From a virus (lineage: Duplodnaviria > Caudoviricetes), in IMG/VR virus record IMGVR_UViG_3300037067_009374, positions 27,076 to 91,075 of that record: 64,000 bases of DNA; one strand, given 5' to 3'. The first letter of the stretch is position 1, and every line of letters starts with the position of its first letter. The notes beneath the pieces were generated by a model. That model saw nothing but the letters and a program-made list of their open reading frames with translations. It made no database searches and was not told the DNA's origin. A program made the position numbers and the translations under genes. Positions 8,782 through 46,366 of this stretch are shown here, piece by piece.

Positions 8782-9807
8782 TTACACCTGACAAGCAGTG
8801 TAACAACTCATAATAAGTCCAGCATAACCAGAATCATAGTAATTGTTCCAGAACATTTTAGTCATCATTGCAACACGAATATGATCTGGTGTATTTGTAA
8901 GTACCTTTGTAAGATAAGTCATTACTCCGCGTCTAACTTTTTCTGGATCAGATTGACCTTTTGAATCTTTTACTTGAGCAAGAACCTTTACCATTGATTG
9001 CCATTTATCTTCCTTTGTTTTGTTGCTCAATAAAACATCACAAATATCTTTTACTGAAGCTTCACCAAGAAATGTTTGATCAATGGTTTCAATTGCTTGT
9101 TTTTCATCTTGTATATCTATTACTTTATCAAGGAGTTTTATTGCGTTTCTTGGTGATCCTTCACAATTAGCTACTATCTTTTGAATGATAGCAATGGGGA
9201 AGTTTTTCAAAACAAAATCTATGTCAGGGATAAAATTTTTATCGTCACTCCATTCAAGTTCTTCAGCAAGAATAGTGGCAATAACTTCAGATATTTCATC
9301 CCCTGATAATGTTCCCATACTAAATGTTGTACATCTTGATCGTACAGTTTCTGGAAGTTTCTCTGGATCAGTTGTACAAAGAATAAACCAAACATGAGAA
9401 GGGGGTTCTTCCATCGGTTTCAATAAACACTCGAAGAAATCCTTGGTTGCCCGGTGAATTTCATCGAGCATATAAACAATAGCAGAACCTACTTGAGGTG
9501 CATACATGTATTCATCTTTAATAGCTCTTGCGTTGTCAATACCTCTTGCATCTCCAATATTGTATTCTCTGAAGTCAGGGTTGTAGTCTACTTCGTCATT
9601 GAAAGCTCCAAGATGTTTTGCTATGATTCTGGCAATTGTCGTCTTCCCGGTTCCTTTTGGTCCCATAAGTAAGATACATTTTGGTATCTTATCTTTTGGT
9701 CTTTCCATTATGAGCTTTAGGGCATCTACTGTATGTTTATTTCCAACAACTTCATTAAAATTTCTTGGTCTATATGCTACTGCTAAGTCAGCCATATTAT
9801 CCCCCAA
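8782..9807 (-). CDS. DnaX-like AAA+ clamp loader
   Basis: YRPRNFNEVVGN, GPKGTGKTT, LDEIH, LLKPMEEPP, TVRSRC, GSPRNA. Confidence 0.92.
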   Translation of the reverse strand: MGDNMADLAVAYRPRNFNEVVGNKHTVDALKLIMERPKDKIPKCILLMGPKGTGKTTIARIIAKHLGAFNDEVDYNPDFREYNIGDARGIDNARAIKDEYMYAPQVGSAIVYMLDEIHRATKDFFECLLKPMEEPPSHVWFILCTTDPEKLPETVRSRCTTFSMGTLSGDEISEVIATILAEELEWSDDKNFIPDIDFVLKNFPIAIIQKIVANCEGSPRNAIKLLDKVIDIQDEKQAIETIDQTFLGEASVKDICDVLLSNKTKEDKWQSMVKVLAQVKDSKGQSDPEKVRRGVMTYLTKVLTNTPDHIRVAMMTKMFWNNYYDSGYAGLIMSCYTACQV

Positions 9808-10196
9808 TAATAGATTTTAATACACTGTAGAATATATCTCCTTGATCTACAAATATTTTTGTATAATCATCAGGAATAAATTGATCATCTGCATCTAATT
9901 TATCCTGTCTAAAAAGTTGGTATTCTTTTCCTAATTTAAAACTATTAAGTTCTTTCCCTGTAGTTTGATGTGGAGTGAAACGTATTTTTTTGTCTACAAT
10001 TATTCGGGATGCATTAGTAAAAGAATTTTGTTTATATTTACTACAAAATGGTTTATTATCTTTCATTGGAATTATACTTATTTCTTTAAATTGACAATTT
10101 TCACCTTCATTGAATTTACAATCAATAACTTTGCATTCATTTATAAATGTTCCCATTCCAATTGATCTTACTTTTCCTAAAATTGATTCTTCCATT

Positions 10197-20989: not shown

Positions 20990-21643
20990 TTACTCTAAAT
21001 TTAAAAACTTGTGAAGTTGTACATTTATGTAAGCATCACCAAAACCAATTGTTGATAAGTCGTTTATCAACAATTGAATATTACTTGCAAATCTACTACC
21101 TCTCAACGGGGAGAATGCAAACCTAACAAGCTTATTTGATAGCCTTATTATGTTTGCAAAATCTACAGCTACTTGGTAATCAAAGTTATCTTTTATGACA
21201 AACTTGATGAAGTCACATTTCCTTAAACTTTTAAAAGCATCCATAATCATATGATGTTCCATATCTGAAGATGGAAGTTTATAATCTACAATAAATGATC
21301 CAACTGAATTACCAAATGGTACAATTGATCCATTTGTTTCAATAGAAACATCTATTTCCTCTTGATATAATCTGCTTGTCAATTCGAATACATTATCTTG
21401 AAGTAATGGCTCACCACCAGTTATTGTAACTTTATTGACTTTTCTGTTTTTAATTTTTTCCATTATACTATCAATGGACATAGTTATACCATTTTTTGAA
21501 TCTCTGGCTGTAGGAGAATCGCAATAAGTGCAAGAGAGATAACAACCCGCAAGGCGAATAAATGTAGACAATCTCCCTTGACCAAAAGCAGATACTTCAC
21601 CATCTATAGAAGTAAATATAGAATGAACATTCAAAGTTTTCAT
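20990..21643 (-). CDS. queE: 7-carboxy-7-deazaguanine synthase (radical SAM)
   Basis: IF.SIDGE, FIRLAGCYLSCTYCD, ITGGEPLLQ, IETNG, QLHK. Confidence 0.95.
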   Translation of the reverse strand: MKTLNVHSIFTSIDGEVSAFGQGRLSTFIRLAGCYLSCTYCDSPTARDSKNGITMSIDSIMEKIKNRKVNKVTITGGEPLLQDNVFELTSRLYQEEIDVSIETNGSIVPFGNSVGSFIVDYKLPSSDMEHHMIMDAFKSLRKCDFIKFVIKDNFDYQVAVDFANIIRLSNKLVRFAFSPLRGSRFASNIQLLINDLSTIGFGDAYINVQLHKFLNLE

Positions 21644-22011
21644 TTAAGTAAACCTTCCCTTTCCCATGATGCAGAGCAATTACTTGTTTCGAATAGTACT
21701 ACTTTCATAAGACCAATTGATATTTCTTCGAAAAGGGAAAAAAGTTCATTTACTATCCACACTACTATTCTTTCTGCTGTAGGGACAGGAAAAATGTCAT
21801 TTAGATATTTATGATCTAAAACAACAAGGATATTTTTTTGAACAATATCCTTAAATTCAGAAAAATCTAGTACCATTCCATCTGGTAATACTGTTCCGGA
21901 AATTGATACCTCGAGTTTATAAGAATGTCCATGAATGTTAGCACATTTTCCTGGATGATTTTCTAGCTTATGTGCTGCTTCAAACTCAAAGTGTCTTGTA
22001 ATTGTTATCAT
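21640..22011 (-). CDS. queD: 6-carboxy-tetrahydropterin synthase
   Basis: FEAAH, C..IHGHSY, GMVLDF, LDHKYLN, PTAE, ET. Confidence 0.95.
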   Translation of the reverse strand: MITITRHFEFEAAHKLENHPGKCANIHGHSYKLEVSISGTVLPDGMVLDFSEFKDIVQKNILVVLDHKYLNDIFPVPTAERIVVWIVNELFSLFEEISIGLMKVVLFETSNCSASWEREGLLK

Positions 22012-38407: not shown

Positions 38408-39193
38408 TTAATAATGAAGTTTTCCTTCAGTCACGATAGTTTGTTTCACAAAACCATGCTTCACAAAATACTTCACATTTTTACTATCAGTGATATAAGT
38501 CCTGATAGTAATTTCTTTGATTCCAGGAAACTGTTCCATTGTTGTATCAAGGATTTCTTTCTGAGTATGTGTGCCTTCAGTTATCAATCCCTCTATGAAC
38601 TTAACTTTTTCGTATCCAGCACCTTTAACTCTTTTTGTACCAGAAGTAGTTGGGGTTGAAGTAGAAACAACCTTTTTCACTTTCTTCGGACCTTTTGTCT
38701 TAATTGTGCAATAAGCATACGACTTTGGATAATCAACTTTACAAGCTTCACAAGCAGGATCAGTTACATCTTGCTTTCCATACACATCACAAGGCATGTC
38801 AGATCCTTCACCTTGCCATGCATCAGCAATTTCATTTTCATTTGTACCTTCCTCTTTCACTTCCTCTTTCACTTCTCCCTGCTTCGCTTGTTCAGCTTCA
38901 GCTTTTTCCTCTTCAGGATACTTGCCAAAATTTCTTGTTATTCCATCAGTATCAACTTCAGGTTGAGTATTAACTCCTTCTGTTACAACTTTTTCAGCTT
39001 CAGGTTCAACAATTTTTGCATCAGATTTAGTATCTGCATTTCTTTTGATTAATACCTTTGCTTCTACGATTGCAGCAATAGCTGCCTCTTTTTCTATCTT
39101 GAACTCCTTTTTAAGGGTTGTGATAACTTTGGATTCTTTCATAGAATCCAACAACTCGACTGCACGATTAGCCATAACTTGTTCTACCGTCAT
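38408..39193 (-). CDS. Acidic protein with Cys cluster and the shared C-terminal helical domain
   Basis: C...ACEAC...YC; C-terminal KFIEGLITEGTHTQKEI...TYITDSKN; start 39193 has an SD. Confidence 0.7.
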   Translation of the reverse strand: MTVEQVMANRAVELLDSMKESKVITTLKKEFKIEKEAAIAAIVEAKVLIKRNADTKSDAKIVEPEAEKVVTEGVNTQPEVDTDGITRNFGKYPEEEKAEAEQAKQGEVKEEVKEEGTNENEIADAWQGEGSDMPCDVYGKQDVTDPACEACKVDYPKSYAYCTIKTKGPKKVKKVVSTSTPTTSGTKRVKGAGYEKVKFIEGLITEGTHTQKEILDTTMEQFPGIKEITIRTYITDSKNVKYFVKHGFVKQTIVTEGKLHY

Positions 39194-39292: not shown

Positions 39293-40168
39293 TTAGTGTA
39301 CTGTCATCCTGTTCAGGTAAATGTTGTTAAAAGTTTTTGCTACATGAGGTTCAACATCAGCTTTCCTCATCTCACTTTCAATGTTGTGGGTTACATATTG
39401 AGAAACAACATTGTGAAATCCCCAAAGAGTAAGTTCCTCACGCTCAAGAGTAGCAGGCAACAAGATTTGTGTACCTGCTTCAGGTAAAGCTTCAATCTTT
39501 TCTTTCTCATTTGGAGAGAAAGGTAATGCATCCCAGATTTCGTCGTAAACTTCTTGTCCAATCTGAGTCTCAGCCCATTTCTTCCAAATCTCGTTTTGTT
39601 CAGAAAAAGCGATTAGGGTTTCTTTCATAGCATTAATTGCACTATCCAAATCCAGTGTAGAAATATGGCGATTAATGTAGTTGAACTGTTTTCCTTTTAC
39701 AGGAATCATTGCTCCATTCGAGCAAATCTTCCTGAACACACCACCATCGCCACGAACTTTCCATTGGAGATCATAACTTGATCTGAATACGATTGTTGGA
39801 ATTACTTCATCACCAACATTTACCTCTCTCATCATTTCTGGAAAGTTGACAGTTAATTTCATCTTTGCTCCAGAATATGGCAAAGATATGCCAAGTTCCG
39901 GTATACCATATTCTGGTACTGCTAGACAAGCATCATGAACCTGCTTGACAATCTCTTCATGCCGAACAAGTTTGTACTCGTCACTGGCGATTGAAAACAG
40001 ATTGTCAGTATCATAGTCCACAATGCCAAATCTGCCTTCAGCAAGAATCTTTTCTCTGCGACCGAAGAAAATTGGAACCTTTCCTGTATTTGGAAATTTA
40101 CGATCAGGAAAAAGTTCAGAACAAAGATCCTTTGCTGCATTAAGATACTCCACAGTTCCGATTTCCAT
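39293..40168 (-). CDS. DUF932/DUF945-family early protein
   Basis: S..YKLVRHEE, SYD, FRKICSNG, H, TLWGFHN...YVTH. Confidence 0.75.
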   Translation of the reverse strand: MEIGTVEYLNAAKDLCSELFPDRKFPNTGKVPIFFGRREKILAEGRFGIVDYDTDNLFSIASDEYKLVRHEEIVKQVHDACLAVPEYGIPELGISLPYSGAKMKLTVNFPEMMREVNVGDEVIPTIVFRSSYDLQWKVRGDGGVFRKICSNGAMIPVKGKQFNYINRHISTLDLDSAINAMKETLIAFSEQNEIWKKWAETQIGQEVYDEIWDALPFSPNEKEKIEALPEAGTQILLPATLEREELTLWGFHNVVSQYVTHNIESEMRKADVEPHVAKTFNNIYLNRMTVH

Positions 40169-40268
40169 GATTTTCTCCCTTCTCTCAAGTTGAATTGTTC
40201 ACTTCAATAAGTTCACAGTTATAAGGAAAGAGACTCAGAATAGAATCTCTAACCTTATATCTGTTACT

Positions 40269-40574
40269 TTATAAAGGACTTACATCTGTTCTATATTCAC
40301 AGAACAGATCACTTATAGCCATTTTACGAATGAATTCCACAGATTCTTTCACACCACCAGAACAGTTTGTAGTGTCAAACCTTACTACGTGTGCAATAAC
40401 TTGAGCAACTATCCTGTCATCAACTTTCATGATGAAAGATCCACACCATAAAGGTAGACAAGAAAAATCAAGATTAGCTCCTTGCAGATCAGCCCCTTGC
40501 AGATCAGCCCCTTCACCATCTTCTTTACCATTCAACCAAAGTTCATGCTTCCTCAATACTTCTTGTAAATTCAT
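40269..40574 (-). CDS. Pentapeptide-repeat protein
   Basis: ADLQG repeats, DFSCLPLWCGS; N-terminus identical to that of 31296-31712. Confidence 0.85.
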   Translation of the reverse strand: MNLQEVLRKHELWLNGKEDGEGADLQGADLQGANLDFSCLPLWCGSFIMKVDDRIVAQVIAHVVRFDTTNCSGGVKESVEFIRKMAISDLFCEYRTDVSPL

Positions 40575-41386
40575 TTTTTCTCTCCTTCTCTCTTGTAATG
40601 AAGTTGTGAGTTAAAAGCAGTATTGCCCTATCATCAGATTGACACAAGAACTAGGAGGTTTATGCTTTCCTCCTAGAATTTCTGTCAACATGAGTTTTAC
40701 TTCATATTCGTAATCCAGAAATGCTTAAATCATTCTCCATTTAATTGTAGTAGAAAACATGTCCAAAAAACAGTCAATCTCTTCCGTAGTTCCAGTAGCA
40801 TAGTACCAACAATGATCTATGATGCTATACCATTTAATCTTGAACAACTTATTCTTTTTCATTTTCATTTCTCCTTTTCTCTTGTGTTGTGATTAAATGA
40901 CCAATTATTGTCTACTCAAATAGAATGGACAATAACCCAACATTTAATTCTTGTGAAATTCCATGTAAGTATAGATTGAAATACCGTTGTAATATGCCAA
41001 ATCTTTTAAATAAGAAAACTCTTTGCTAAGACAATCCTCATTGAACATTCTTGCTCCATTTTTCTTGATATATTCCTTAAGCTTTTTCTTCTCAGTTTTA
41101 CCTAATTTCCTAATAGTTAGATTCATTTCATTTCTCCTTTTCTCTCGTTTAGAATAAGTTCACCAAAAACACTTTGCTTTGCAGTAAAGAAACCAAAATA
41201 TCGTGCAAAACACCCAAATTCGCAGTATAAAGTGTGCTTTTTCAGTCAGTAGCCATAATTCAGCATCACATTCTCTTAACCTATAAATGTCAAAAGAACA
41301 CAATTCAGAATAAGCTAAATAACTGAAAATATTAGCTTTTTAACTGTAATTGTATCTCTTTTCTCAATTGATACTATTAACATCAT

Positions 41387-41428
41387 AAAGCAGTCAGATA
41401 AACAGAATCAAGAGTTTATCTGACTGCT
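41387..41428 (-). terminator. Intrinsic terminator-like hairpin after ORF 41436-41870
   Basis: 15-bp stem AGCAGTCAGATAAAC/GTTTATCTGACTGCT with a short U run on the minus strand. Confidence 0.6.
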
Positions 41429-41435
41429 ATAGCTG

Positions 41436-41870
41436 CTAATAGTGAAGTATGTTGCGTGCGTTTGTCAAAGTCAGCGCGTCAAACTTGTGCACTCTGAAGT
41501 ATCGCTCATTTTTCGAATCAGTGATATACGTGCGTACTGTGATGACAGCGAGATCATTGAACGCTTGACAAGTAAGCGCGACAACTTCTTTTTGAGTGTA
41601 TCGCGCTTGACTGATAAGAGATTCGATAAACTTTACACAAGAGTGCTTATCAGACTTTGCACGTTTGACTTTGTTGCTCTTGTCGAGTCTGATAGTTGAA
41701 ACATCGACATTATGACGAATCGCTCGACGCTCTGCTATACGTTGCAGAGTGCTTTTCTTTTCTTCAACTACTTCGCGTTGAACGTAAGCACGTGCGTTTC
41801 TGTCAGTCAAAAGCTCTTCAATCGAAGCGTTTTCGACGTTAACAACTCTTTTACGAAGTATTGTTTTCAT
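41436..41870 (-). CDS. Early protein with no Gly/Pro/Trp; paralog of the C-terminal domain of 38408-39193
   Basis: KFIESLISQARYTQKEV...TVRTYITDSKN...LHY. Confidence 0.85.
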   Translation of the reverse strand: MKTILRKRVVNVENASIEELLTDRNARAYVQREVVEEKKSTLQRIAERRAIRHNVDVSTIRLDKSNKVKRAKSDKHSCVKFIESLISQARYTQKEVVALTCQAFNDLAVITVRTYITDSKNERYFRVHKFDALTLTNARNILHY

Positions 41871-41898
41871 TGTTTTCTCTCTTTCTCTTGATTAGAAG

Positions 41899-42090
41899 TT
41901 AATTGCGTGAAAATCGTTTTCTCGTCTTTTTCTTAACGTCTTTCTCACACTCATCACAGTAGTAACTAGAACTATCTTTCAAATCTTTTCTGCATATTGC
42001 ACAAGTAACAGAATCAAAGCGTTTAAAGAACTTACTTGAATTATAAAACTTGTTTCTCTTACGTAAAACTACATTACATATCATAAGCAC
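41899..42090 (-). CDS. Small basic CxxC-CxxC zinc-finger protein (no Gly/Pro/Trp)
   Basis: CAIC...CDEC; purine-rich upstream sequence. Confidence 0.6.
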   Translation of the reverse strand: MLMICNVVLRKRNKFYNSSKFFKRFDSVTCAICRKDLKDSSSYYCDECEKDVKKKTRKRFSRN

Positions 42091-42159
42091 TCATTTCTTT
42101 AATTGTTCAAAGCATTTTTAATTCTTATCTCTTATCTAATGAGAGTGCAAAAGAATGAA

Positions 42160-42333
42160 TTAGTGTTTGATTGCATCACACACAAAGTTTTTCAGCAGAA
42201 TAAAGTGAATTTCTCTGCTATTCTTTTCTATCAATTCGCGTGCAAAAGATACTTGTCTATTTTCTGCTATCATGTTTCTAAGCATTTTATTTTGATGTTT
42301 AAGTAAATCAATTTTCAAAGTGTCATCATTCAT
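42160..42333 (-). CDS. 57-aa early protein enclosed by inverted repeats
   Basis: Below the ORF-track cutoff. MNDDTLKIDLLKHQNKMLRNMIAENRQVSFARELIEKNSREIHFILLKNFVCDAIKH; SD-like GAAAGTGAG. Confidence 0.65.
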   Translation of the reverse strand: MNDDTLKIDLLKHQNKMLRNMIAENRQVSFARELIEKNSREIHFILLKNFVCDAIKH

Positions 42334-42447
42334 TGTATTTGCTCACTTTCATAGCACTCTCATTAAAAAAGAGATAAGACAAAAACACTTGTCTTATTCA
42401 ACTATAAATCTAATCAGTCTCTTATTTATGCATAGCACAAAAAGAAA

Positions 42448-42663
42448 TTAAATCAGACATTCTTTTGCAGAAAACATACAATCTCTAGATTCAATCAAGT
42501 AAGCTTCTAAATCTTGATAAACATCTTCTGACATTTCGCAATCGTCATTACTTGCACTTGTCAAAAGATTTTCTCTTCTTGCGCGTCTTATATCGCTTAA
42601 TAGTGTTGCAATATCATTTCTTAACTCTTCAGTTTGTTCGTAAAACAATTGTTTTGTTATCAT
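42448..42663 (-). CDS. 71-aa acidic helical early protein enclosed by inverted repeats
   Basis: Likely start 42663 (MITKQLF...) after GAAATGAG. Confidence 0.7.
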   Translation of the reverse strand: MITKQLFYEQTEELRNDIATLLSDIRRARRENLLTSASNDDCEMSEDVYQDLEAYLIESRDCMFSAKECLI

Positions 42664-42690
42664 ACTAAACTCATTTCTAGTGCTATGCAT

Positions 42691-42724
42691 AAAAAAGAGA
42701 CTGACTAAAAGTACAGTCAGTCTC
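42691..42724 (-). terminator. Terminator-like hairpin plus U6 upstream of ORF 42448-42663
   Basis: GAGACTGACT/AGTCAGTCTC stem followed by U6 on the minus strand. Confidence 0.65.
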
Positions 42725-42751
42725 AATTTTCAAGAGAAAAGAGAAAAGAGA

Positions 42752-43450
42752 AAACTTAATAGACGAACAAGAGTTAAGAAAAACTCTCTTGTTATATGAT
42801 TTAATCTCTTGTCTATCATCGAATATTGAAGTTTGTTGTGCACTCACTTCTTACGTTCTATACATGCTTAGTCTAAATTATCAGCTCTTACACTGATTCA
42901 AGTTCGCATGTAATTTTCATGCTTTTTCAGAGCATCAGTACAAAGCAAAAACTATTGATACTTTGCACTAGAACAGAACAAATAGACAAGAAAAGCACTA
43001 GCTTTCTATTCGCATTGTACTAACTATGCTTTTACTCGCATAGCATCAGCACAAGAGAACAAAACGCTTGTCAGTCTATTAAGTTTAAGTTGTCAATTTC
43101 GCATATCTGATTATCAGATAGCTACTTCGAAAGTAGTTTGCACTTGTTCACGCTTGCATTTCAGCTAACTGTTAGACTCAAATGAAAATGTCTTAGTCTA
43201 CTCGACATTGCAATCTACATGACTTGCTACTTTGACTCGTCAGCATCTACACTATGCTGACAGTAGCAATCAAAGCATTCTCAGTCTAACTATTCGCGCT
43301 TACTCTGCTTGTCTACTATCATCAGCAGTCAAACGATAGCGTCAAGTGCGTCTAGTTTGTCTCTGTCAGAGCTTGCTCTGTCTCGCGATTGCACTCTGAG
43401 AGTCTCTCGCTATATGCGAGTACAAGAGTAATCACATGCAAAAGTTGTAC
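42752..43450 (-). ncRNA. Candidate large structured non-coding RNA
   Basis: No ORF of 60 aa or more; nested long-range stems 42752-42764/43074-43086 and 42807-42816/42982-42991, plus many local hairpins. Confidence 0.5.
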
Positions 43451-43894
43451 TTAATTTGATTACTTTATTCTCAAAATTAACTTAACTTATTGAATTGATT
43501 AAAAGAAGAATAAGATTTAAAACACAATTGTCTCAAGATAGATGATACAATTATGTGATTAAAAAGACACAAAAATAAAAGAGTTATTATTAAAAGAAGA
43601 ATAAGATGTTAAAATAACTTTGTTATAACATAGTGTTACTAAAAAGATACAATGTTACTAAAAAGATAAGCAGAGTATAGCAGAGCAAACAAAGCACTCT
43701 CAGCATAGCGTCAAATAGCGTCTACAACGTGTCTAATTTTTGATTTAAGACACTTTCAGCATAGAGCACGAAGAAACACACACACAGAGCATAGCAGAGC
43801 AAACAAAGCACTCTAAGAACATACTCTATTAATGAAGTATAGATTAAGATCTTTTGCAAACTTAATCATACTAGTTTAGTTAAGATTAAGTTAC

Positions 43895-44235
43895 TGACAA
43901 TTATTGTCACCTAATCAGTTCAATATGAAACAAAGCAAAAACGATTGTGAAGAAACAAAACATTGATTTTAAAGCGTCTAATAAGCGTTTTTAGCAAGGC
44001 AAAAGTCAAAACGTATGTAACTACGTCTTAGCATGAGATCGTCGATTGACTAGTCATTCTTAGATTTAACAAAGTCAATAAAATCAATAAGTTAAAAAAT
44101 AGCGTTTTGTACAATATTCTACAAAACACTGACAATTATTGTCACCTAAGTAAAAACACTGACAATTAGCGTCACTGAAACAAGCAAGACACATATGTTG
44201 CAGTTTGTTGCATACGCTAGTGACAAAATATGTCA
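43895..44235. repeat. Four TGACA-N5-TGTCA palindromic boxes
   Basis: 43895-43909, 44130-44144, 44160-44174 (one mismatch), 44221-44235. Confidence 0.75.
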
Positions 44236-45027
44236 GTGTATCAAGATAATATGAGACAATAATGAGACAGACTTGAGACATGTATCAGTCATGAGACAGT
44301 GAGACAATAATGTGAGACAGAGTGTTTTGTATGTAGTGTAGTTGAGTAGAGTAGTGATAAGAGAGCAGGATAAAAGAGTATGGATGTTATGTGTAGTGCT
44401 ATTTGTGTAGAGCGGAGCGATATATCATGAGGAGCAGTAGTATGCTGGAGCATTATACATATGTACGTAGGATACATATGATTATATACTGTTCAATTAG
44501 CACAGGATATATGTGCATAGCATGTTCAATATACAAATAATGAGCGATAGTGTAATCATATCATATGCATATGATATGATATTACATACAGTAGTTTATC
44601 AGACGTTGACGAGAAAAGCTAATGAAATCAATTACTTAGCCCCCTCGCTCTATCTCAAACGATTTGTTGTGTTGCTCGCATGGGGGTACCCACCACAAAA
44701 TTTTTTCCAAATAAAGTGAATGTTGCTTAAAGGTCCAGAAAAATTTTTTCCAAATAAAGTCAAAGTAGAGATTACCTCCAGAACATTTTAAATATAAAAC
44801 ATAAACCTTAATACAATTTTTAAGTATTCTTTTCTTTTACTACACTACTGTCAAACCCTCATTTCATAACCATTAAATATATCTCCAGAAATTTTCAATA
44901 TAAACAGACTTACTTTTGGGTATTGTTCCTTTATTAACCTTTAAATTTCTATTTTTTCTGGAGACTAATAAATATTAAGGGAATCACTGTTCATCATTAC
45001 TGAATGAGAACCATAACTTTGAAAATG

Positions 45028-45162: not shown

Positions 45163-46366
45163 GAGGTTAAGCTGAAAAGAAACCTAAACAATACTGATAA
45201 AGTATTTCTTTTGGGTGGATATTACATGTATACTTAATCCAAAGTAAGTTGTTATGTCTGGGAGATAATCTATTTGTGAAAGGCGTTTTACATGGTCTTG
45301 AAGCTTTTTATAGAGAAAGGTTGATAGGAATATTGTGGTGGGGTTTTTATCTTGGAGTATTAACTGGTTGATTCTTTCTCTGATTATAGTCTCCAATGCA
45401 ACTCCAAAGAAGGTTGGTTGAGGTTTTTTAATGTATCTGTAATATGATGTGAGTACGTTTCTTGTCGGCATTTTATTTGCTTTCTGAGAGTTTAAGGGAT
45501 ATATGTTCCTTAGTTTGGATCATGCTTTTCGATACAATGTACATGTGCATAGTAATCTCTTTTTCCTGATGTGCAAGAGACATAAACTTCTTTTTCTTTC
45601 TTTTGGATAGGTTGGTTACAATAATGACAAATGTGGACAGGTTTGTAATCGTTATGTTTATGAAAAGGATGATTGTAAAGGGATATTGTCATTACTTAAT
45701 CCTTAAGGAAGAATAAGAAATAAATGGCATAAGATACACCTTGTAGCAGAATATTTATGAGTATCCAAATAAATATTTCTTTTAAGGACGCATTAATCAT
45801 CTCCAAATCTTTCTTTGTATTTAATTTCTGCTTGGACAAGCTTTAGAGCGGTGTTGGCAAAATTTTGACAGAACCATTCTTGCTCTGTAAGCCATTTAAG
45901 GTACCATAATGGACAATCTTCAATACCAACACCTTTAAATTTGCTTTTTTCAAATGGAATGACCCACACTGAATCTGCCATTATTTCTCCTAACTTTTTG
46001 TAAGTTACCACGATTATTCCACATTTTTAATGTCATCAGTATGCCACGGAGTGGACAATCTTCAGTTTTACACCCTAATTTCTTTGGAGTATTTTGAGAG
46101 TAAGCTGGTTCTTGCCCACACCATGGACATTTTTTCATACATGTGCTCCTATCATTTAAGCAAGTTCTCTGGTGTTTCATCTTCCAGTACAGCAATACGA
46201 TTTGGTCTGATATACTCCTCTGCTACAAATGCAAGAATATCTTGTCCAGGAATTGATATTTGATTTATTCTTTCCTCCTTACAATTATCATTCAAGATTG
46301 TTACATCTCCAGAGAAATCAGGATTAAACCAAAACACTGTTCCTTTTGGCGCTTTATAGGTATGGC

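What the first reader, a model, noticed from the sequence alone, without database searches (positions are those of the whole stretch)
41436..41870. Protein recoded to lose Gly and Pro: paralog evidence that GG-avoidance is under selection
Seen: this 144-aa ORF has no Gly (GGN), Pro (CCN) or Trp (TGG). Its C-terminal domain aligns colinearly with the paralog 38408-39193 just outside the zone: KFIEGLITEGTHTQKEILDTTMEQFPGIKEITIRTYITDSKNVKYFVKHGF versus KFIESLISQARYTQKEVVALTCQAFNDLAVITVRTYITDSKNERYFRVHKF. Every Gly/Pro position is substituted (G>S, G>A, P>N, G>D, G>K) while the hydrophobic core is kept. The other three zone ORFs also use only the remaining 17 amino acids. Inference: DNA-level selection overrode protein-level constraint, and the intact frame argues against a sequencing artefact.
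Basis: partly seen in the sequence, partly recalled or inferred. Interest (0 to 1): 0.88.

Follow-up and report, generated by a model that had tools for sequence, protein, structure and literature searches.

The report
Phage gene rewritten without glycine, proline
A small DNA-binding gene of an uncultured gut phage has lost every glycine, proline and tryptophan because it lies in a 2.6-kb first-read block where selection forbids the DNA steps GG and CC; distant relatives show the same, so a DNA-level rule has overridden conserved protein positions, and what reads GG is still unknown.

Summary
ORF 41436-41870 (-) encodes 144 aa with no Gly, Pro or Trp. Its C-terminal 76 aa are a true paralog (46% identity, E 3e-19) of 38408-39193. 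It is the last gene of a 2,630-bp GG/CC-free block (41280-43910), unique in this 91-kb phage.

A profile search found 234 relatives of the domain. In 136 ordinary members, Gly is kept at 84% in one turn and Pro at 87% in another. Eleven members lack Gly/Pro/Trp entirely (Gly to Ala, Pro to Asn/Ser/Lys). Every such member, and two near-free ones, whose DNA I could fetch (7 loci) lies in GG/CC-free or nearly free DNA.

Codon choice is constrained too (P about 5e-5). Window and a 74%-identical ortholog differ at 365 of 1,024 zone positions without creating one GG or CC (P about 1e-35). pN/pS is 0.24 and the predicted winged-helix fold is kept.

New here: the block is a whole promoter-to-terminator unit. 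A second tier follows where only the mRNA-strand CC (template GG) is banned, giving Pro-free proteins.

The cause is unproven. I favour keeping this unit free of the phage's own 7-deazaguanine modification (about 0.4) over evasion of a host nuclease or Cas9 PAM (about 0.25). This scan noted GG/CC-free cassettes before in other phages; I found none in print.

The parts
41436..41870 (-). The finding: 144-aa Gly/Pro/Trp-free protein. It has a helical N-terminal part and a C-terminal winged-helix-like domain (residues about 70-144). It is the last gene of the GG/CC-free unit.
   Evidence: ORF and composition. Orthologs P0002 and P0003 (77% and 74% identity) are also G/P/W-free. pN/pS 0.24. AF2 pLDDT above 90 for residues 75-144. 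All top VIA-align hits are winged-helix domains, Z 6-8.3.
38408..39193 (-). Ordinary paralog outside the zone (261 aa) with the same C-terminal domain, Gly and Pro retained. It also has an N-terminal three-helix domain, an acidic linker and a Cys-rich stretch.
   Evidence: BLASTP E 3e-19. Orthologs P0005-P0007 keep the Gly/Pro. AF2 model.
41280..43910 (.). Zone A: 2,630 bp with no GG and no CC on either strand. It holds about 1 kb of ORF-less leader, three small ORFs and the winged-helix gene.
   Evidence: The same block occurs in L001, L004, L005, L012 and L013/L014, and in leaky form in L006.
41899..42090 (-). 63-aa CxxC...CxxC small protein of the zone, without G/P/W.
   Evidence: Weak zinc-ribbon-type Pfam matches below cut-off. 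A similar ORF is in L006 at 9738-9959.
42160..42333 (-). 57-aa zone ORF without G/P/W.
42448..42663 (-). 71-aa zone ORF (from its ATG) without G/P/W.
41389..41428 (-). 15-bp perfect hairpin followed by a U-rich tail, directly after the stop codon. Probable terminator closing the GG/CC-free transcription unit.
   Evidence: Fold -33 kcal/mol, z -5.0. An equivalent hairpin with a different stem sequence occurs in 6 of 7 loci.
40101..41279 (-). Zone B: the mRNA-like strand has normal GG (56) but only 7 CC against 31 expected. Its three small ORFs (47, 60 and 47 aa) have no Pro; the 101-aa pentapeptide-repeat ORF has two.
   Evidence: Same tier elsewhere: L012 (1 CC / 129 GG in 2.1 kb), L006 (10/123), L013 (5/60), L005 (2/27).
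43895..44235 (.). Three copies of an operator-like palindrome TGACA-N5-TGTCA (43895, 44130, 44221), overlapping promoter-like hexamers. The only mRNA-strand GGs between 44640 and 41280 sit directly beside two of them.
   Evidence: The same palindrome occurs at L006 7825.
44640..44690 (-). Conserved boundary element: GGTACCCCC, about 30 nt, then TTTGAGATAGArCGAGGGGG. It marks the upstream limit of the mRNA-strand GG ban. Function unknown (packaging or cos site, or terminator?).
   Evidence: It is nearly identical in L006 7420-7469 within an otherwise diverged spacer. The fold is not significant in the window.
16938..22011 (-). 7-deazaguanine DNA-modification cluster: DpdA homolog 16938-17855, QueF, FolE, QueC, QueE, QueD. 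Candidate source of the GG-reading activity.
   Evidence: Pfam and PHROG matches. DpdA 31-38% identical to the DpdA of phages Iggy and 9g. QueC also present in the related 90-kb phage.

Best explanation
SHOWN (about 0.9). The ORF is a real gene under purifying selection. It encodes a small winged-helix protein of a widespread, unnamed phage family. It is the last gene of the first leftward transcription unit (operator-bearing promoters near 44.1 and 43.9 kb, about 1 kb of leader, small genes, then a terminator hairpin). That whole unit is under old and continuing selection against the dinucleotides GG and CC in the nucleic acid itself. This removes GGN, CCN and TGG codons, so the protein was rewritten in a 17-letter alphabet. 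The turn Gly became Ala and the conserved Pro became Asn, while the predicted fold was kept.

INFERRED (about 0.4; this is the confidence given for the whole statement). GG is banned because it is the sequence context in which the phage's own DpdA enzyme swaps guanine for a 7-substituted 7-deazaguanine (a preQ1-type base). A GG-free unit therefore arrives in the next host as plain, unmodified DNA. The host RNA polymerase and regulators can read it at once, and a nuclease that senses the modification would not see it. The template-strand-only ban in the next 1-2 kb (zone B) fits a polymerase that must read the template strand of incoming modified DNA.
For: Recoding by a nucleotide-level ban:
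- Paralogy.
- Family columns: Gly 84% and Pro 87% in ordinary members, against Ala and Asn/Ser/Lys in the 11 G/P/W-free members.
- All 7 loci with DNA are GG/CC-free or nearly so.
- Codon-level test, P 5e-5.
- 365 substitutions with no GG or CC created, P about 1e-35, pN/pS 0.24.
- Same predicted fold in both paralogs.
- Unit bounded by a terminator hairpin in 6 of 7 loci.

Link to the phage's own modification:
- A complete DpdA, FolE, QueD, QueE, QueC, QueF set here, and QueC in the related complete genome.
- Only 179 of 50,697 GenBank phage records carry a DpdA homolog.
- Known DpdAs are motif-specific: GA and GGC in CAjan (PMC7544227), GA in Iggy (PMC10484667).
- 7-substituted 7-deazaguanines inhibit E. 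coli and B. subtilis RNA polymerase in vitro (PMC4838386).
- Strand-specific zone B.
- The same banned word recurs in lineages down to 18-30% protein identity. This points to a phage-borne or universal reader rather than one host's enzyme.
Against: - The modification and its sequence context are unknown for this phage.
- Two deazaguanine phages I checked have no comparable block. Iggy (GA motif) has only a 290-bp GA-free stretch at its right end. Dp-1 (preQ1 genes) has none.
- The in-vitro inhibition of RNA polymerase was at initiation, not elongation (PMC4838386).
- The few GGs that are tolerated sit right beside the promoter operators, where a modification should matter most.
- Distant zone-bearing lineages are known only from 1-7 kb contigs, so co-occurrence with dpdA rests on one lineage (searches found no longer contigs).
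- Why both strands are cleared in zone A remains unexplained.
Confidence: 0.4

Rival explanations
1. Evasion of host defence by first-entering DNA. The unit lies next to the terminase genes, so it is probably packaged last and injected first. It carries no GG or CC so that a host factor needing that dinucleotide cannot act before the downstream anti-defence genes are expressed. Candidates are Cas9-type NGG PAMs, CC PAMs, or a GG-reading nuclease, acting in cleavage or in spacer acquisition.
For: - The layout resembles the early regions of T5 and T7. In T5 only first-step-transfer DNA is sensitive to EcoRI or CRISPR (bioRxiv 10.1101/866236).
- Autographiviridae escape a Type I RM system when the motif is missing from the first-injected region only (PMC12455610).
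- The free end of injected phage DNA is a hotspot for type II-A spacer uptake (as summarised in PMC8860600).
- Downstream genes are of families common in leading or anti-defence regions: pentapeptide repeat, DUF932, DUF2786/DUF7168.
- The nearest QueF relatives point to a Firmicutes gut host, where, from my own knowledge, NGG-type PAMs are common.
- The relative L006 has a leaky zone (13 sites in 3.1 kb), which fits a cost per site.
Against: - The template-strand-only tier (zone B) and the staggered boundaries are not expected for a double-strand PAM or restriction site.
- The same dinucleotide is kept across very divergent lineages, which presumably have different hosts.
- Other palindromic restriction-type words are not avoided and CpG words are enriched.
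- A normal-composition leftward gene cluster (45184-46200) lies between the zone and the terminase genes.
Confidence: 0.25
2. A reader at RNA level. The first transcripts must lack GG and CC (and the next ones CC only) to escape an RNA-binding or RNA-cleaving factor. Examples are a GG-specific endoribonuclease of the RegB type, a GGA-binding CsrA-type repressor, or a C-reading terminator.
For: - The CC-free stretch on the mRNA-like strand starts near the predicted transcription starts and runs through two units.
- Ribosome-binding sites in the zone use GAG or GAGA instead of GGAG.
- The only GG in 2.3 kb of L005 is in this gene's Shine-Dalgarno sequence.
Against: - The mRNA-strand GG ban begins about 0.5 kb upstream of any predicted start (44640).
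- UC is not avoided, which argues against Rho's 5'-YC preference.
- No known factor reads a bare CC in RNA.
Confidence: 0.12
3. A translational cause. Early proteins avoid Gly, Pro and Trp codons so that they do not depend on particular tRNAs, for example tRNAs cut by a host anticodon nuclease.
For: All zone ORFs lack these three amino acids.
Against: About 1 kb of ORF-less DNA, both strands, and codon junctions are equally free of GG and CC. Given the protein sequence, zero GG/CC has P about 5e-5. AGG, CGG, GCC, ACC and TCC codons for other amino acids are absent as well.
Confidence: 0.02
4. No selection on GG/CC. The pattern is an assembly artefact, a one-off hypermutation, or a protein lineage that simply happens to lack Gly and Pro.
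For: None found. The monophyly of the G/P/W-free members cannot be rejected (AU p 0.29), so a single ancient origin is possible.
Against: - The block occurs in independent samples.
- GC content of the zone equals that of the genome (33%), so there was no decay to A+T.
- Synonymous sites are saturated with zero GG or CC created.
- ORFs are intact with pN/pS 0.24.
Confidence: 0.01

Closest known systems
First-step-transfer (pre-early) DNA of phage T5, and the early-injected region of T7-like phages (Murciavirus study, PMC12455610; T5 review, bioRxiv 10.1101/866236)
   Same: A short promoter-proximal block beside the genome's divergence point carries the first genes read. In those phages, only recognition sites in the first-entering DNA matter, and that DNA lacks them.
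   Different: Those cases concern specific 4-8 bp or bipartite restriction motifs of one host, with no effect on protein alphabets. Here a bare dinucleotide is excluded totally over 2.6 kb, the proteins are rewritten, a strand-specific second tier follows, and entry order is not established.
CRISPR PAM depletion in phage genomes (PMC12174588 for the type I-F CC PAM in Pseudomonas phages; PMC4246573)
   Same: The avoided word is a dinucleotide-sized motif, GG/CC.
   Different: Published depletion is a modest, genome-wide statistical bias. Here the rest of the genome has GG and CC at 1.14-1.19 of expectation and the exclusion is local and absolute.
Motif-specific 7-deazaguanine DNA modification by phage DpdA (CAjan: GA and GGC, PMC7544227; Iggy: GA, PMC10484667; pathway, PMC10516641)
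   Same: This phage encodes DpdA plus the preQ1 pathway. Such enzymes act on short G-containing contexts, so a GG-free block would stay unmodified.
   Different: No paper I found describes a modification-free block. Iggy and Dp-1 show no multi-kb motif-free zone. The motif here is unknown.
Restriction-site avoidance in prokaryotic viruses (PMC6286503) and GATC avoidance in phiX174 (PMC5014478)
   Same: Selection on DNA words shapes codon choice.
   Different: Those cases change synonymous codons. Here the ban is strong enough to remove three amino acids, including positions conserved at 84-87% in the family.

Membership tests
Unnamed phage C-terminal winged-helix domain family (core motif T-x-x-T-[YFL]-x-[TS]-D-S-K-N-x-K-Y) | Significant profile match over the whole 75-residue domain | tested here: met
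   In the profile search P0001 scores 6e-37. There are 234 members at E <= 1e-3. Pairwise E with the in-genome paralog is 3e-19.
Unnamed phage C-terminal winged-helix domain family (core motif T-x-x-T-[YFL]-x-[TS]-D-S-K-N-x-K-Y) | Near-invariant residues T46, D50, K52, N53, K55, Y56 (domain numbering) | tested here: met
   All are present in the zone copy. These columns are 89-99% conserved in 136 ordinary members and kept in the 11 G/P/W-free ones.
Unnamed phage C-terminal winged-helix domain family (core motif T-x-x-T-[YFL]-x-[TS]-D-S-K-N-x-K-Y) | Conserved turn Gly (column 21, 84%) and Pro (column 37, 87%) | tested here: not met
   The zone copy has Ala and Asn at these columns. This is the recoding itself, shared by all 11 free members. 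It does not argue against homology.
Winged-helix (wHTH) DNA-binding fold | Three helices followed by a beta-hairpin wing | tested here: met
   AF2 gives H75-87, H93-103, H109-120 and a strand at 141-143, with pLDDT 90-96. The paralog has the same order of elements. The top 50 VIA-align hits are winged-helix domains at Z 5.9-8.3 and rmsd 2-3 A over about 60 residues; this Z range is middling. Foldseek gave nothing significant.
Winged-helix (wHTH) DNA-binding fold | Binds DNA (candidate site: the TGACA-N5-TGTCA palindromes) | not testable with these tools
   Inference only. Conserved palindromes lie at the unit's promoters.
First-injected 'leading' region with motif avoidance (T5 FST / T7 type) | Lies at the genome end that enters the cell first | not testable with these tools
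   The contig is a circular assembly with a 127-bp end overlap. The only support is position beside terS/terL.
First-injected 'leading' region with motif avoidance (T5 FST / T7 type) | Lacks the recognition word of an identified host nuclease | tested here: inconclusive
   GG and CC are absent, but the host and its systems are unknown. Common 4- and 6-bp palindromes are present or enriched.
Genome-wide CRISPR PAM depletion | PAM under-represented across the phage genome | tested here: not met
   Outside the zone, GG observed/expected is 1.19 and CC is 1.14.
Phage DpdA / 7-deazaguanine DNA modification system | DpdA (TGT-like transglycosylase) homolog | tested here: met
   16938-17855 matches phrog_887 at 1.9e-47. 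It is 31-38% identical to the annotated DpdA of Iggy, 9g and others.
Phage DpdA / 7-deazaguanine DNA modification system | preQ0/preQ1 synthesis genes FolE, QueD, QueE, QueC, QueF | tested here: met
   Pfam: QueF 9e-29, GTP cyclohydrolase I 1e-42, QueC 6e-67, radical SAM 2e-14. QueD: phrog_2389 at 5e-23.
Phage DpdA / 7-deazaguanine DNA modification system | Modified base present in virion DNA, in a defined sequence context (here predicted: GG) | not testable with these tools
   No reads or chemistry are available.

The most novel reading that the evidence does not exclude
One rule may explain the whole anatomy: no GG on any DNA strand that serves as template for the very first transcripts made from the incoming genome. 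The reason would be that GG is where the phage's own DpdA installs a bulky 7-deazaguanine that the host polymerase reads poorly. Zone A would then be transcribed in both directions (leftward template clean over 43998-40927, rightward template clean over 41280-44640), and zone B in one direction only. The phage would thus keep an unmodified 'boot sector', at the price of a 17-amino-acid alphabet for its first proteins. Other modified phages would keep analogous sectors with other banned words.
Probability: 0.2. Interest if true: 0.92.

Novelty: new variant of a known kind. Interest (0 to 1): 0.84.

Why it matters
This is an unusually clean natural experiment. Two paralogs sit in one genome, one inside and one outside a forbidden-dinucleotide block. 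They show that a constraint on DNA words can override residues conserved at 84-87% in a protein family and impose a reduced amino-acid alphabet for long evolutionary times.

It also flags a conserved, probably first-read transcription unit in a broad group of uncultured gut phages, and implies an unidentified activity that reads GG. Whether that activity is the phage's own base-modifying enzyme or a host defence, identifying it would add a new rule to phage genome design. It would also matter for engineering modified or 'stealth' phage DNA, and for protein design with reduced alphabets.

Tried and rejected
- GenBank phages: no DNA match, no protein match for P0001 or P0125, and only one weak capsid match.
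- IMG/VR: the single-protein scan found nothing. The alignment scan found one related 90-kb phage. Scans with P0125, P0088 and P0019 found nothing, so co-occurrence of zone and dpdA could not be tested in independent lineages.
- Metagenome scan: only four short contigs of ordinary family members.
- Bacterial genome scan: nothing.
- P0087 contig: not on record. P0002 and P0019 contigs gave no DNA.
- Pfam and PHROGs: no family for either paralog. There is only a weak DUF7669 hit in one relative, and two long relatives are HerA-fused. ESM Atlas gave only weak leads.
- Rfam: nothing in 40-47 kb.
- Promoter and terminator consensus scan: not above shuffles.
- Tree of the domain: too few columns. 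Free members fall in at least 2 clusters, but monophyly is not rejected (AU p 0.29), so single versus repeated recoding stays open.
- Shared Chi-like oriented k-mers in the zones: none convincing.
- Fold of the boundary element: not significant in the window.
- Test of the idea that a phage avoids its own modification motif in early DNA: phages Iggy and Dp-1 show no multi-kb zone.
- General palindrome or restriction-site avoidance: rejected.
- tRNA or translation cause, and artefact: rejected (see rival explanations).

Full report
**What the window is.** The window is 64 kb of a 91,075-bp contig with a 127-bp end overlap, that is, a circular assembly. It is a tailed phage. Terminase, protease and major head genes run rightward from 46.9 kb. 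Polymerase, helicases, primase and a 7-deazaguanine cluster run leftward from about 44 kb. It has no close relative among GenBank phages. The nearest QueF sequences come from human-faecal phage contigs and Firmicutes phages, and normal genes use GGAG-type ribosome-binding sites. A low-GC Gram-positive gut host is therefore likely; this is an inference.

**The observation.** ORF 41436-41870 (-) encodes 144 residues with no Gly, Pro or Trp. The phage's own proteome would give this by chance at about 1.4e-8. Its last 76 residues align colinearly with the C-terminus of the 261-aa product of 38408-39193, with 46% identity and E 3e-19. All eight Gly/Pro positions of the paralog's domain are replaced. 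The ORF lies in a 2,630-bp block (41280-43910) with no GG or CC, where about 147 are expected. No other gap in the genome exceeds 223 bp, and the next largest lie next to the block. The three other zone ORFs also lack G/P/W.

**Is it selection?** Four lines of evidence say yes.
- *Orthologs.* Proteins 77% and 74% identical, from other samples, are also G/P/W-free. The DNA of one (L001) is GG/CC-free up to about 200 bp past the gene.
- *Family columns.* An exhaustive profile search with the domain found 234 relatives. Among 136 ordinary representatives, one inter-helix turn has Gly in 84% and another position has Pro in 87%; a third Pro is at 70%. Eleven representatives, down to 18-30% identity with the window protein, lack G/P/W completely. 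They carry Ala (10 of 11) and Asn/Ser/Lys/Ala at those positions.
- *DNA context.* Each free or nearly free member whose DNA could be fetched (window, L001, L004, L005, L013/L014, and with a few leaks L006 and L012) sits in GG/CC-free or nearly free DNA. Ordinary members do not (L002, L003, L008-L011).
- *Nucleotide level.* Re-drawing synonymous codons for this very protein from the phage's codon usage gives on average 12.8 GG/CC, and none in only 5e-5 of trials. Window and L001 differ at 365 of 1,024 aligned zone positions, and 19.8% of possible substitutions would create GG or CC, yet neither sequence has one (P about 1e-35).

The gene itself is constrained: pN is 0.196 against a saturated pS of 0.81. 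AlphaFold2 predicts the same three helices plus hairpin, with pLDDT above 90, for both paralogs. All top structural neighbours are winged-helix domains at Z 6-8.3, a middling range.

Only two of the five substitutions hit family-wide conserved positions. The other three are Gly only within the paralog's own clade.

**Paralog history.** Zone copies (P0001/2/3/8/9, 98% SH-aLRT) and ordinary copies (P0004-7) form separate clades. Both exist in the window phage and in the related 90-kb IMG/VR phage, so the duplication predates their split. Whether all G/P/W-free members share one origin is unresolved (AU p 0.29). In the IMG/VR phage the two paralogs share an NPSEKYG insertion on a 24-nt tract that is 21/24 identical. 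This is best read as a short gene conversion, and it supplies the only Pro and Gly of that zone copy. It shows how GG or CC can re-enter the zone.

**Anatomy beyond the finding.** On the mRNA-like (-) strand, GG is absent from 44640 to 41280, apart from two GGs that abut operator-like palindromes (TGACA-N5-TGTCA at 43895 and 44130; a third copy lies at 44221, and the same motif occurs in L006). CC is absent from 43998 to 40927. The upstream limit is a conserved GGTACCCCC...CGAGGGGG element shared with L006. The downstream limit follows a long perfect hairpin with a U-rich tail, directly after the winged-helix gene. This hairpin is present in 6 of 7 loci with different stem sequences. Zone A is therefore a complete promoter-to-terminator unit.

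A second tier follows (zone B, 41279-40101). There GG is normal (56), but mRNA-strand CC is 7 against 31 expected. The same tier is seen in L012 (1 CC / 129 GG in 2.1 kb), L006 (10/123), L013 (5/60) and L005 (2/27), and its small ORFs are Pro-free or nearly so. Downstream come a pentapeptide-repeat protein, DUF932, the ordinary paralog and DUF2786/DUF7168.

The ban is specific. Common 4- and 6-bp palindromes are present. CpG words are enriched, with CpG observed/expected about 1.0 in the zone against 0.4 elsewhere, and this holds in all loci.

**What reads GG?** This is not shown.

*I favour a link to the phage's own DNA modification (about 0.4).* The phage and its complete relative carry DpdA plus the full preQ1 pathway. 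Only 179 of 50,697 phage records have a DpdA homolog. Known DpdAs act on short G contexts (PMC7544227, PMC10484667). 7-substituted deazaguanines inhibit bacterial RNA polymerases in vitro (PMC4838386). The template-strand-only tier suggests a reading polymerase. Finally, one banned word across very divergent lineages suggests a phage-borne or universal reader.

Against this reading: the motif is unknown. Iggy shows only a 290-bp GA-free end and Dp-1 shows nothing. The in-vitro effect was on initiation. The tolerated GGs sit at the operators.

*The main rival (about 0.25) is evasion of a host GG/CC-dependent system by first-entering DNA.* This is modelled on T5 and T7-like phages (bioRxiv 10.1101/866236; PMC12455610) and on spacer uptake from injected ends (PMC8860600). 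It fits the position beside the terminase genes and the anti-defence-like neighbours. It does not fit the strand asymmetry.

*Other rivals.* An RNA-level reader (about 0.12) is weakened because the GG ban starts upstream of the predicted transcription starts. A translational cause and an artefact are excluded.

**Comparison and novelty.** Motif avoidance in early-injected DNA and PAM depletion are known. Not found in my literature searches are: total local exclusion of a dinucleotide, a two-tier strand-specific structure, conservation across a protein family, and rewriting of conserved Gly and Pro. Earlier notes of this same scan report GG/CC-free or GA/GG-free early cassettes in other phage groups. 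I used them as leads only.

**Verdict.** The phenomenon is wider and more structured than described. Its cause is open and testable.

Noticed in passing
window 40101-41279 (-); L012 4691-6781; L006 10595-12500; L013 953-2242: A second tier follows the GG/CC-free unit. The mRNA-like strand has normal or high GG but almost no CC (template strand without GG). The small proteins encoded there are Pro-free or nearly so, but they do contain Gly and Trp.
   Followed up: partly
window 44640-44690; L006 7420-7469: A conserved element (GGTACCCCC, about 30 nt, then TTTGAGATAGArCGAGGGGG) sits exactly at the upstream border of the mRNA-strand GG ban, in an otherwise diverged spacer. It could be a cos or pac site, or a terminator. 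A second conserved island (TTTTAGACTACTCTGA) lies about 450 bp further upstream.
   Followed up: partly
window 43895-43909, 44130-44144, 44221-44235; L006 7825-7845: An operator-like palindrome TGACA-N5-TGTCA overlaps promoter-like hexamers. The only mRNA-strand GGs in 3.4 kb lie directly 5' of two copies. These palindromes are a candidate binding site for the winged-helix protein.
   Followed up: no
window 41280-43910 and the zones of L001, L004, L005, L006: CpG is at or above expectation in every zone (observed/expected 0.9-1.3), against 0.35-0.63 in flanking phage DNA. GpC is 1.5-2.1. Arg is mostly CGN although AGA is allowed. This is more than renormalisation after removing GG and CC would give.
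   Followed up: partly
L006 10370-10400 and 13255-13285: The zone copy and the ordinary paralog of the related phage share an NPSEKYG insertion that both window copies lack. This is best read as a short gene-conversion tract, and it re-introduced a CCC and a GG into that zone.
   Followed up: partly
window 41340-41440 (-); L001 880-990; L004 732-842; L006 10457-10570; L012 4615-4700; L013 707-820: Terminator-like hairpins of 13-19 bp are built without GG or CC stacks. Their stems differ between loci, so structure is kept while sequence changes. In four loci a conserved TYGAGAAAAGAGA motif follows.
   Followed up: partly
proteins P0021 (819 aa) and P0128 (840 aa): The same C-terminal domain is fused to HerA-type ATPases (PF01935) in some relatives.
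   Followed up: no
L015/L016 (Pseudomonas phage Iggy), 60025-60628: Iggy's DpdA has a published GA motif. Its right genome end, upstream of the leftward genes, is GA-free for 290 bp, with a 200-bp TC-free stretch beside it. These are the largest (GA) and second-largest (TC) such gaps in that genome.
   Followed up: no
window 42850-43870: About 1 kb of the GG/CC-free unit has no plausible ORF and is rich in GC/CG-alternating hairpins. It matches no Rfam family. It may be a leader or a non-coding RNA.
   Followed up: no
window 38408-39193 (-): The ordinary paralog has a confidently predicted N-terminal three-helix domain (residues 1-59), an acidic disordered linker, and a Cys-rich stretch before the winged helix.
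   Followed up: no
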